Source: Octopus sinensis (Eukaryota). Taken from it: a stretch of DNA of 64,000 nt. The notes beneath the pieces were generated by a model. That model did no database searches. It saw only the letters and a list, made by a program, of their open reading frames with translations, and was not told the DNA's origin. A program made the position numbers and the translations under genes. Below, in pieces: positions 2,220-43,000 of the stretch (position 1 is the stretch's first letter; every line of letters starts with the position of its first letter). The stretch is taken from contig NC_043020.1 of assembly GCF_006345805.1 (NCBI RefSeq), positions 26,722,001 to 26,786,000 of the forward strand, written 5' to 3'.

Positions 2220-2280
2220 GTGAACAATGCCACTGCCCGTGTTATGACCAAAAAAGCCGTTAACCCCGCAATTCCAAATG
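2220..2280 (+). CDS. Rbfox: Rbfox (Fox-1 family) coding exon: end of RRM, VNNATARVMTKKAVNPAIPN; upstream exons lie outside the window
   Basis: TAG acceptor ends at 2219 and GTAAGG donor starts at 2281. The translation matches the Rbfox RRM C-terminal signature (E)VNNATARVMTxKK. 61 nt, phase 0 in, phase 1 out. Confidence 0.93.
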
Positions 2281-17075: not shown

Positions 17076-17223
17076 CTGCTGCTTTACGAGGTGTGACGTT
17101 GACTCGTGGTCGAGCAGCAGCGGCTGTAACGGCACGAGGAGTATACGCCGCAGCAGCGGCAGCAGCAGCATTCAGGCACCCGACGCCCTTGACAACAACT
17201 GCAGCAGCTTTACCGTACGCCGC
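17076..17223 (+). CDS. Rbfox: Rbfox coding exon, Ala/Arg-Gly-rich C-terminal domain: AAALRGVTLTRGRAAAAVTARGVYAAAAAAAAFRHPTPLTTTAAALPYAA
   Basis: Pyrimidine tract plus TAG acceptor (ends 17075) and GTAAGT donor at 17224. GC-rich island; 148 nt, phase 1 in, phase 2 out, in frame with both neighbours. Resembles the vertebrate AAAYRGAHLRGRGRTVY...PAYGG segment. Confidence 0.9.
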
Positions 17224-19182: not shown

Positions 19183-19240
19183 TGGAGTGTATCACCAAGA
19201 CCCCTTCTTAGCGACATATGCAGCAGCTGATCGATATCAG
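19183..19240 (+). CDS. Rbfox: Rbfox coding exon GVYHQDPFLATYAAADRYQ
   Basis: tttgcctttcag acceptor and CAG|GTAAGT donor at 19241. 58 nt, phase 2 in, phase 0 out. Resembles vertebrate GVVYQDGFYGAD. Confidence 0.9.
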
Positions 19241-20904: not shown

Positions 20905-21002
20905 CTTGTTACAACCCAGCCATATGCAGCTGCAGGCTATGCGGCTGCAACACGCTATGCAATCCCCACTGTAGCAGCGACAGCAGCCACGTACGCGGCT
21001 GG
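20905..21002 (+). CDS. Rbfox: Rbfox coding exon LVTTQPYAAAGYAAATRYAIPTVAATAATYAAG
   Basis: Long pyrimidine tract plus tttcag acceptor and GTAAGT donor at 21003. 98 nt, phase 0 in, phase 2 out. Tyr/Ala-rich like vertebrate GGYAAYRYAQP..ATAAAY. Confidence 0.9.
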
Positions 21003-31732: not shown

Positions 31733-31908
31733 TGCATGAGTTACAATAAATTTTGCTGCTCTGCCTGCATGTAGTGGGTTTGTTTGGTGACCCATCAGTT
31801 GCATGTCTTACAGGTATGGCAGGGAGTATGCGGCAGACCCCTATTTGGGACACAGTATCGGACCAGTCACCGGATATGGGGTAGGTCTTCCGTTTCAATC
31901 CCAGCATG
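31733..31908 (+). promoter_or_regulatory. Cluster of Rbfox binding elements (U)GCAUG around the 67-nt exon
   Basis: TGCATG at 31733-31738, 31766-31771 and 31800-31805 (8 nt before the exon start), plus GCATG at 31904-31908. All lie in non-microsatellite sequence. Confidence 0.8.
31814..31880 (+). CDS. Rbfox: Rbfox penultimate coding exon YGREYAADPYLGHSIGPVTGYG (probable cassette exon)
   Basis: ttacag acceptor and GTAGGT donor at 31881. 67 nt, phase 2 in, phase 0 out. Matches the conserved YGRVYAADPY motif of Rbfox proteins. Confidence 0.92.
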
Positions 31909-41613: not shown

Positions 41614-41658
41614 GCTACTGTTTACAGGGGTGGTTACCAGCGGTTTGCACCATACTGA
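41614..41658 (+). CDS. Rbfox: Rbfox terminal coding exon ATVYRGGYQRFAPY* (PY-type nuclear localisation signal)
   Basis: ctgttgcag acceptor and TGA stop at 41656-41658. Near-identical to the canonical Rbfox C-terminus YRGGYxRFAPY. Confidence 0.95.
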   Translation, partial: ATVYRGGYQRFAPY

Positions 41659-41765
41659 GGTCACGTGAGTACGTTGCTATGAAGCGGATGGCAAGAAACT
41701 CTTTTTTCCTGAATCTGACAGCAAGACAGGCTGTCTGATTTTTTTTTATATAAAACAAATAAGTT

Positions 41766-41769
<4 letters not shown>

Positions 41770-41808
<39 letters not shown>

Positions 41809-41918
41809 TATATATACATACACACATATAATACGTATATATATGTGTGTGTAATACATATATGTATGTATATATAAATATATGTATATATATATATATA
41901 TATAATATATATATATAC

Positions 41919-41967
<49 letters not shown>

Positions 41968-42378
41968 CATGTATATACACACACATATATATACCTTACA
42001 CACATGTACATACATATGTATATATATATATATATACACACATATATATATATATAATATATATATATATATATACACGCAAAGCAAAAATGCCACCCTG
42101 AGGATTTTTAAACGTGGTTACAAAATTCACCCCTGATCAGGGTGGTGTTGTCAATCATTGATATCGAAACGATATTGATTGGGACTAATAATAATAATAA
42201 TGATAACAACAACAATCTAACATACATACAAATTTAAAAACAAAAAAAAAATGCGAAAACTATTTTGTTTTTCAAGCAGCAAAGAATTATGGGAAAAGAA
42301 ATTAAATATTGGAAAACGGAAAATACCAAATGTCAGAACGATAATGACTATATATATATATATATATATACATATGTA

Positions 42379-42424
<46 letters not shown>

Positions 42425-42494
42425 TATATATACATACACACATATAATACGTATATATATGTGTGTGTAATACATATATGTATGTATATATAAA

Positions 42495-42540
<46 letters not shown>

Positions 42541-42652
42541 TGTATATATGTATATATATACATATATATATGTATATATATATACATGTATATACACACA
42601 CATATATATACCTTACACACATGTACATACATATGTATATATATATATATAT

Positions 42653-42683
<31 letters not shown>

Positions 42684-43000
42684 CACGCAAAGCAAAAATG
42701 CCACCCTGAGGATTTTTAAACGTGGTTACAAAATTCACCCCTGATCAGGGTGGTGTTGTCAATCATTGATATCGAAACGATATTGATTGGGACTAATAAT
42801 AATAATAATGATAACAACAACAATCTAACATACATACAAATTTAAAAACAAAAAAAAAATGCGAAAACTATTTTGTTTTTCAAGCAGCAAAGAATTATGG
42901 GAAAAGAAATTAAATATTGGAAAACGGAAAATACCAAATGTCAGAACGATAATGACTATATATATATACATATGTATATATATATACATATGTATATATG
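41770..43000. repeat. Tandem duplication of about 608 bp just 3' of the Rbfox stop codon
   Basis: The unique block TGCCACCCTGAGG... occurs at 42091 and 42699. Copies are identical apart from microsatellite lengths. Confidence 0.9.

What the first reader, a model, noticed from the sequence alone, without database searches (positions are those of the whole stretch)
41614..41670. Dual-coding last exon: alternative frame ends in TEVT*, like the frameshifted vertebrate RBFOX2 tail
Seen: joining 21002 to 41614 reads GGG CTA CTG TTT ACA GGG GTG GTT ACC AGC GGT TTG CAC CAT ACT GAG GTC ACG TGA, i.e. [18 protein letters not shown], with the stop at 41666-41668, 10 nt beyond the RFAPY stop. Recalled, not verified here: human RBFOX2 frameshifted isoforms end ...ADLPPTEVT*, encoded by TACTGAAGTGACGTGAG versus TACTGAGGTCACGTGAG here. 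The two differences are synonymous in the alternative frame and fall after the main-frame stop. Inference: the TEVT tail may be under protein-level selection across bilaterians, reached by different skipping events in different lineages.
Basis: partly seen in the sequence, partly recalled or inferred. Interest (0 to 1): 0.85.

Follow-up and report, generated by a model that had tools for sequence, protein, structure and literature searches.

The report
Octopus Rbfox self-skipping localisation switch
In the octopus gene for the splicing regulator Rbfox, three of the protein's own binding motifs sit just before a 67-base exon; skipping it would swap the nuclear-import tail for one ending TEVT, as in land-vertebrate RBFOX2, likely a feedback switch, while the TEVT match itself is likely not due to selection on the peptide.

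Summary
The sequence observation is right. The last exon (41614) reads RFAPY* in one frame and ...LHHTEVT* in the +1 frame. Skipping the 67-nt exon 31814-31880 would reach the second frame, and amniote RBFOX2 isoforms do end TEVT (103 of 120 rows; also in print). Selection on TEVT across bilaterians is not supported. Only 2 of 44 animal Rbfox sequence groups end TEVT in that frame, teleost rbfox2 and the RBFOX1/3 tails seen do not, and the likeness is confined to 10 nt after the stop. That 9-mer (GTCAYGTGA) recurs in mollusc-like and other relatives at shifted positions, out of frame in 7 of 13 groups, which points to a nucleotide element or chance. The new, stronger feature is three TGCATG Rbfox sites at -81, -48 and -14 before the 67-nt exon: the only such cluster in 64 kb, echoed in 6 of 20 related groups. 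Rbfox likely represses this exon and so removes its own PY-type import signal. The skip junction itself is not shown. Two RNA contigs include the exon, and the O. bimaculoides models that skip it (7 of 7) may reflect an assembly gap.

The parts
41614..41658 (+). Last coding exon, main frame ATVYRGGYQRFAPY* (PY-NLS-type tail)
   Evidence: spliced to the 67-nt exon in contigs of runs X6 and X10
41615..41668 (+). +1 frame of the last exon, [17 protein letters not shown], reached if the 67-nt exon is skipped
   Evidence: same junction in 7 of 7 O. bimaculoides RefSeq models seen
41660..41668 (+). Post-stop 9-mer GTCACGTGA; supplies VT* of the +1 frame; also overlaps a donor-like GTGAGT (41665-41670) not used in the two contigs seen
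31814..31880 (+). 67-nt second-to-last exon (YGREYAADPYLGHSIGPVTGYG), 3n+1; acceptor with 13 of 22 pyrimidines, donor 6 of 9 to consensus; candidate cassette exon
31733..31805 (+). Three TGCATG Rbfox motifs at 31733, 31766 and 31800 (-81, -48, -14 from the acceptor)
   Evidence: only cluster of three within 100 nt among 26 sites in 64 kb; Poisson about 1e-5
31904..31908 (+). GCATG 24 nt after the donor of the 67-nt exon
20905..21002 (+). 98-nt exon (LVTTQPY...ATYAAG) whose phase-2 donor is the 5' side of the skip; its +1 frame is closed by a TAG
19183..19240 (+). 58-nt exon (GVYHQDPF...ADRYQ), positional counterpart of vertebrate B40; skipping it gives a premature stop
17076..17223 (+). 148-nt Ala-rich exon; 100% identical to O. 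bimaculoides Rbfox over the 48 residues searched
2220..2280 (+). 61-nt exon ending the RRM (VNNATARV...); the other RRM exons lie upstream of the window on C24

Best explanation
Three Rbfox-binding motifs lie directly before the 67-nt second-to-last exon of the octopus Rbfox gene; Rbfox likely represses this exon in its own pre-mRNA, and skipping would shift the last exon one frame, replacing the RFAPY import signal with a short TEVT-ending tail and likely keeping that isoform in the cytoplasm. Shown: exon sizes and phases, both frames, the motifs and their clustering. Inferred: that skipping happens, that Rbfox drives it, and the localisation. The stop would lie in the last exon, so decay is not expected. 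The tail probably matters by lacking the import signal, not by its sequence. The four-residue identity with amniote RBFOX2 most likely reflects nucleotides: a GTCAYGTGA element at the start of the 3' UTR that octopus shares with mollusc-like relatives, and that RBFOX2 either kept (about 50%) or matches by chance (about 50%).
For: TGCATG at -81, -48, -14; none within 100 nt upstream of the other five window exons. Positive control: the 93-nt RRM exon, whose Rbfox-driven skipping is known in mammals with an equivalent exon in fly (PMC3126832), has TGCATG over both splice sites in this genome, and two other upstream exons have none in about 1 kb each. Upstream binding represses inclusion (PMC11380049). 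In related loci 6 of 20 groups have TGCATG within 100 nt upstream of the same exon, against 1.1 expected (P about 0.001) and 1 in 2100 nt before the last exon. 7 of 7 O. bimaculoides models join across the exon. FAPY/FTPY ends are nuclear and alternative ends cytoplasmic in RBFOX1/2/3. For the nucleotide reading: GTCAYGTGA occurs 15 times sense and 2 antisense in the first ~200 nt after the stop of 44 groups and 0 times in 73 kb of other flank. Its TGA ends the +1 frame in only 4 of 13 groups, is in frame but not reached in 2, and out of frame in 7. L008 matches the window at 13 of 16 nt but shifted by 8 nt.
Against: No skip contig in 4 runs laid; the two that cover the exon include it. All O. 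bimaculoides models lack the exon, which is also what an assembly gap would give. 0 of 95 other proteins from the mollusc-centred searches have a +1 tail (large clusters only partly listed). 14 of 20 related groups have no upstream TGCATG, acceptors were hand-picked, and several positives belong to one clade. A GCATG also lies downstream, where binding would favour inclusion. In the largest clade carrying the 9-mer the invariant core is GTGATTCC, which octopus lacks, so homology there is doubtful. The amniote RBFOX2 last exon is nearly frozen in the +1 frame (3 of 17 positions vary, against 42 of 53 upstream), which leaves peptide selection in amniotes open.
Confidence: 0.5

Rival explanations
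1. The 67-nt exon is effectively constitutive. The TEVT frame is an unused by-product, and the O. bimaculoides models are an artefact of a missing exon in that assembly.
For: Both informative contigs include the exon. All 7 O. bimaculoides models lack it, none keeps RFAPY. 85 of 95 other proteins from the mollusc-centred searches end PY and none has a +1 tail. The +1 frame is stop-free across the 11 overlap codons in 44 of 44 groups, so an open frame is no evidence.
Against: The triple TGCATG cluster (P about 1e-5), its echo in relatives, and the matching pattern at the known autoregulated RRM exon. Contigs drop rare variants.
Confidence: 0.25
2. One reading: the TEVT tail is an ancestral bilaterian peptide under selection, reached by different skipping events and lost in many lineages.
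For: 8 of 10 nt and both stop positions shared, about 4e-5 to 4e-4 per pair. TEVT is invariant in 103 amniote rows. Three of the four non-vertebrate groups with the 9-mer within 30 nt of the stop end the +1 frame on it (EVT*, QVM*, LVT*), and four groups read T[DN][DN]VTVM.
Against: 42 of 44 groups, teleost rbfox2 and the RBFOX1/3 tails seen lack it. No excess +1 identity in the overlap. The motif is out of frame in L008 and six other groups. S/N change between two octopuses.
Confidence: 0.12
3. Skipping is real but driven by another factor or tissue programme, not by Rbfox feedback; the motifs serve another purpose, such as blocking a cryptic acceptor.
For: No direct test of binding was possible; a downstream GCATG is also present.
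Against: The position and number of motifs fit the published repression rule, and the gene uses the same motif at its RRM exon.
Confidence: 0.09
4. GTGAGT at 41665 is a regulated donor for a 3' UTR intron; the conserved 9-mer is a splice-site-like element, and its use would remove the +1 stop.
For: CAC|GTGAGT matches the donor consensus at 7 of 9.
Against: Both covering contigs read through it to 41756 with no joint or loose end there. Relatives have GTGATC, GTGACC or GTGATT at the same place.
Confidence: 0.04

Closest known systems
Amniote RBFOX2 exon-10 (B40) skip isoform ending PTEVT (PMC5577181; PMC11380049)
   Same: The same last exon is read in the +1 frame; the second stop lies 10 nt after the first; the last four residues are TEVT; the C-terminal NLS is lost; reported cytoplasmic.
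   Different: RBFOX2 shifts three exons earlier and recodes about 70 residues; octopus recodes 17 by dropping the second-to-last exon. The B40-type skip is closed by a stop in octopus and in teleost rbfox2.
RBFOX1 FAPY/TALVP and RBFOX3 FTPY/IGTM C-terminal switches (PMC3126832)
   Same: Splicing near the 3' end removes the hPY-NLS and gives a cytoplasmic isoform.
   Different: Different events and unrelated tails; none skips the YGREY-type exon as proposed here.
Rbfox autoregulation of the 93-nt RRM exon (Damianov and Black 2010; seen only as cited in PMC3126832 and PMC11380049)
   Same: UGCAUG at the exon's splice sites, repression by Rbfox itself; the same arrangement is present in this genome.
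   Different: That event makes a dominant-negative protein; the one proposed here keeps the RRM and would change localisation.
Non-triplet alternative splicing with alternative C-termini (PMC13247117)
   Same: A 3n+1 exon near the 3' end gives a recoded C-terminus without decay; splicing factors autoregulate such exons.
   Different: fox-1 and asd-1 are not named in that paper's main text; its autoregulated examples act through decay.

Membership tests
Rbfox (Fox-1) family | Central RRM of the Fox type | tested here: met
   P0037 (O. vulgaris Rbfox, PF00076 cluster) matches exons on C24 at 77-96% including upstream RRM exons; one locus only
Rbfox (Fox-1) family | Ala/Tyr-rich C-terminal domain ending R-x-x-PY | tested here: met
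   spliced form
Rbfox NLS-removing C-terminal splice switch | Frame-shifting exon whose skipping removes the PY tail without a premature stop upstream of the last junction | tested here: met
   67 nt, phases 2 and 0, stop in last exon
Rbfox NLS-removing C-terminal splice switch | The skipped mRNA exists | tested here: inconclusive
   0 skip contigs in 4 runs, 2 include the exon; 7 of 7 O. bimaculoides models skip it but may reflect a gap
Rbfox NLS-removing C-terminal splice switch | Alternative isoform is cytoplasmic | not testable with these tools
   inferred from vertebrate data
Rbfox-repressed cassette exon | UGCAUG in the proximal upstream intron above background | tested here: met
   3 sites, P about 1e-5; 6 of 20 related groups
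Rbfox-repressed cassette exon | Inclusion falls with Rbfox level | not testable with these tools
   needs a minigene or knockdown
Dual-coding region under selection in both frames across bilaterians | Alternative-frame peptide conserved in intermediate taxa | tested here: not met
   2 of 44 groups; 0 of 120 teleost rows
Dual-coding region under selection in both frames across bilaterians | Alternative-frame identity above what the main frame forces | tested here: not met
   5 of 11, equalled or exceeded by 20 of 43 groups
Structured RNA element at the stop | Stable fold or Rfam family | tested here: not met
   z-scores -0.46 to 0.14 in 4 sequences; none of 90 sub-threshold Rfam hits covers 41614-41760, they start at 41763 or later in the TA repeats

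The most novel reading that the evidence does not exclude
The 10 nucleotides after the Rbfox stop are an ancestral bilaterian element, kept in place for over 500 million years in cephalopods and amniote RBFOX2 and displaced in bivalve-like and other lineages. In octopus it terminates a self-induced cytoplasmic isoform whose TEVT end is itself a selected ligand shared with RBFOX2.
Probability: 0.12. Interest if true: 0.8.

Novelty: new variant of a known kind. Interest (0 to 1): 0.47.

Why it matters
Nuclear versus cytoplasmic Rbfox decides between splicing control and 3' UTR control. In vertebrates each paralog makes that choice with its own exon. If Rbfox itself represses the second-to-last exon in octopus and relatives, a single-copy gene converts excess nuclear protein into a cytoplasmic form: feedback on location rather than amount. 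I found no report of this in ten full-text searches (open-licence library only). It is testable with one RT-PCR and one minigene. The TEVT match is a useful caution: a striking peptide identity that does not hold across intermediates. It does expose a short 3' UTR motif of unknown role.

Tried and rejected
Run search: no RNA holder listed on record; not used as evidence. Of 4 runs laid, X4 gave nothing and X1 only an intronic piece. RNA structure at the stop: no signal. Rfam: only sub-threshold hits in TA repeats. An open +1 frame as evidence: rejected, 44 of 44 groups are open. The 9-mer's presence in the window alone is not above chance (2 matches against 1.34 expected); only its position in relatives is informative. 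Treating the large GTGATTCC clade as independent support: rejected, these are close relatives with a different invariant core. An extra in-frame exon like those in P0008 or abalone between the last two exons: not found (one search had a faulty pattern). A DNA E-box/M-box or a miRNA site as the 9-mer's role: considered from recall only, not tested. Earlier scan findings: 4 look-ups, nothing on this gene. Papers not held: PMC4785839, PMC2811669.

Full report
What the window is. It holds the 3' half of the single Rbfox gene of an octopus-like genome (G000:C24). The 48 residues searched from one exon are 100% identical to O. bimaculoides Rbfox. Six exons lie in the window: 2220-2280, 17076-17223, 19183-19240, 20905-21002, 31814-31880 and the last from 41614 (coordinates were off by one for four exons and were corrected).

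Observation. The last exon reads ATVYRGGYQRFAPY* and, one base on, [17 protein letters not shown]. The 67-nt exon is 3n+1, so its skipping gives the second frame; skipping the 58-nt B40-like exon instead meets a stop in the next exon. Contigs of two runs from two studies join the 67-nt exon to 41614 and run through the donor-like GTGAGT to 41756. One run gave only an intronic piece, one gave nothing, and no skip contig appeared (contigs drop rare forms). All 7 O. bimaculoides models seen skip the exon and end ...[12 protein letters not shown]. Since none keeps RFAPY, an assembly gap is a live alternative that I could not check. Of 95 other proteins from the mollusc-centred searches, 85 end PY and none has a +1 tail (for the three largest clusters only 15 of 40, 54 and 18 members were listed).

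The vertebrate side. L018 is a mammal-type RBFOX2 last exon with the same two stops. 103 of the best 120 of 2500 amniote-led rows end TEVT, human isoform 8 among them. Rat FAPY/TEVT ends are described in PMC5577181 (passages and section 7 read), and a review calls the PTEVT form cytoplasmic (PMC11380049, passages). Among 50 distinct 70-residue tails (from 101 of the 103; two dropped for length or pattern), 3 of 17 last-exon positions vary against 42 of 53 upstream. The amniote last exon is therefore constrained beyond its main frame, by peptide or by nucleotides.

Test across animals. One degenerate scan of metagenome contigs gave 64 Rbfox last exons; with the window they fall into 44 groups at 85% identity. 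The +1 frame ends TEVT* in 2 of 44 (window, L018); elsewhere it runs 1 to 102 codons past the main stop with unrelated sequence. The sample is uneven: many groups are one clade, no other cephalopod was recognised, and only tails fitting the pattern were found. Teleost rbfox2 gives 0 of 120 rows with TEVT (113 end RFAPY), and 4 of 28 further cluster members are B40-skip models that stop about 20 codons after the shift. RBFOX1-type L021 ends HTK*, pigeon and rabbit RBFOX3 run on from PTSK, and a turtle paralog from RTEE. In the 11 overlapping codons octopus and L018 share 5 residues in the +1 frame, as 20 of 43 groups do or better. The likeness is thus confined to the 10 nt after the stop: 8 of 10, against at most 6 for the other 42 groups, about 4e-4 to 4e-5 per pair before allowing for several paralogs and for a scan of many windows. 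That is too low to dismiss, and it remains the strangest part of the finding.

A nucleotide reading. GTCAYGTGA occurs in 12 of 44 groups within about 200 nt of the stop (15 sense, 2 antisense) and never in 73 kb of other flank. L008 (mollusc-like by tblastn) matches the window at 13 of 16 nt but 8 nt further on, out of frame. L013/L043/L051 (best hit Mya arenaria) carry it 12 nt further on, in frame, and share a following TGACCAAT with L008. Of 13 groups, counting L018, its TGA ends the +1 frame in 4, is in frame but unreachable in 2, and is out of frame in 7. Most of the rest belong to one clade (annelid-like; this label is recalled, not from a call) whose invariant core is GTGATTCC, so its homology is doubtful. 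No fold or Rfam family fits. The element's role is open: I favour an RNA-level 3' UTR site over a DNA E-box because some relatives, like RBFOX2, have GACGTGA, but this is inference.

The stronger feature. Three TGCATG lie at -81, -48 and -14 before the 67-nt exon. They form the only cluster of three within 100 nt among 26 sites on the + strand (P about 1e-5), and none lies before the other five exons. The acceptor has 13 of 22 pyrimidines and the donor matches 6 of 9. The 93-nt RRM exon upstream has TGCATG across both splice sites, while two other upstream exons have none. Rbfox-driven skipping of that RRM exon is described in PMC3126832 (passages). In related genomic loci 6 of 20 groups have TGCATG within 100 nt upstream of the same exon (1.1 expected; P about 0.001; L003 dropped for short flank; acceptors hand-picked; groups not all independent). 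Upstream binding represses inclusion (PMC11380049).

Mechanism. Likely, nuclear Rbfox binds the three sites and blocks the acceptor; the exon is skipped; the last exon is read in +1; the protein keeps its RRM, loses the hPY-NLS and likely accumulates in the cytoplasm, where Rbfox acts on 3' UTRs (fly example in PMC8595405, passage). Anatomy and motifs are shown; skipping, causation and localisation are inferred.

Literature seen. Passages or sections of PMC5577181, PMC11380049, PMC3126832, PMC5778076, PMC8595405, PMC13247117 and bioRxiv 2021.05.09.443278 (fly Rbfox1 has 35 intronic motifs). A term look-up in 10.64898/2026.05.28.727796 found no RBFOX2 in the main text; its supplement was not visible and may list it. 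No supplements were read. Ten searches listed nothing on this exon or on TEVT outside mammals; subscription papers are not covered.

Verdict. Observation confirmed; interpretation partly supported. This is a new variant of a known kind: a probable autoregulated location switch.

Noticed in passing
L067:570-678 (G000:C24 about 26710269-26710377): The 93-nt RRM exon upstream of the window has TGCATG overlapping both its acceptor and its donor.
   Followed up: partly
L003, L006, L009, L015, L023, L026, L028, L029, L033, L035, L041, L042, L049, L057, L059, L064 (first 200 nt after the stop): A clade-wide 3' UTR element, CTTCC...GTGATTCC, at 30-170 nt from the stop in 16 of 44 groups, always on the sense strand; role unknown.
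   Followed up: partly
L008, L013, L043, L051 (10-45 nt after the stop): GTCATGTGA followed about 6-7 nt later by TGACCAAT is shared by mollusc-like loci; L043 has a second copy of the 9-mer.
   Followed up: partly
P0008, P0043, P0021, P0025 and other abalone rows: Some cephalopod-like and abalone Rbfox proteins carry an in-frame insert of 17-20 residues before ATVYRGG, like the RBFOX1 insert at the same place; no counterpart found in the window.
   Followed up: yes
P0280-P0398 (amniote RBFOX2): The RBFOX2 last exon is almost frozen in the +1 frame across mammals, birds and turtles, unlike the two exons before it.
   Followed up: partly
window 41550, 41570, 41575: Low-depth intronic contigs in X1 and X6 differ from the window (A>G, A>T, a 2-base insertion); more like allele or species differences than editing.
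   Followed up: no
window 17077-17223: The Ala-rich exon is also stop-free in a second frame for its whole length (49 codons).
   Followed up: no
window 41768-42080 and 42350-42700: Long TA/CA microsatellites begin about 110 nt after the stop; both spliced contigs end just before them, so the 3' UTR end is unknown.
   Followed up: no
L004, L054, L055 acceptors of the second-to-last exon: Two candidate acceptors 18-21 nt apart in the same frame suggest alternative 3' splice sites at this exon in relatives.
   Followed up: no
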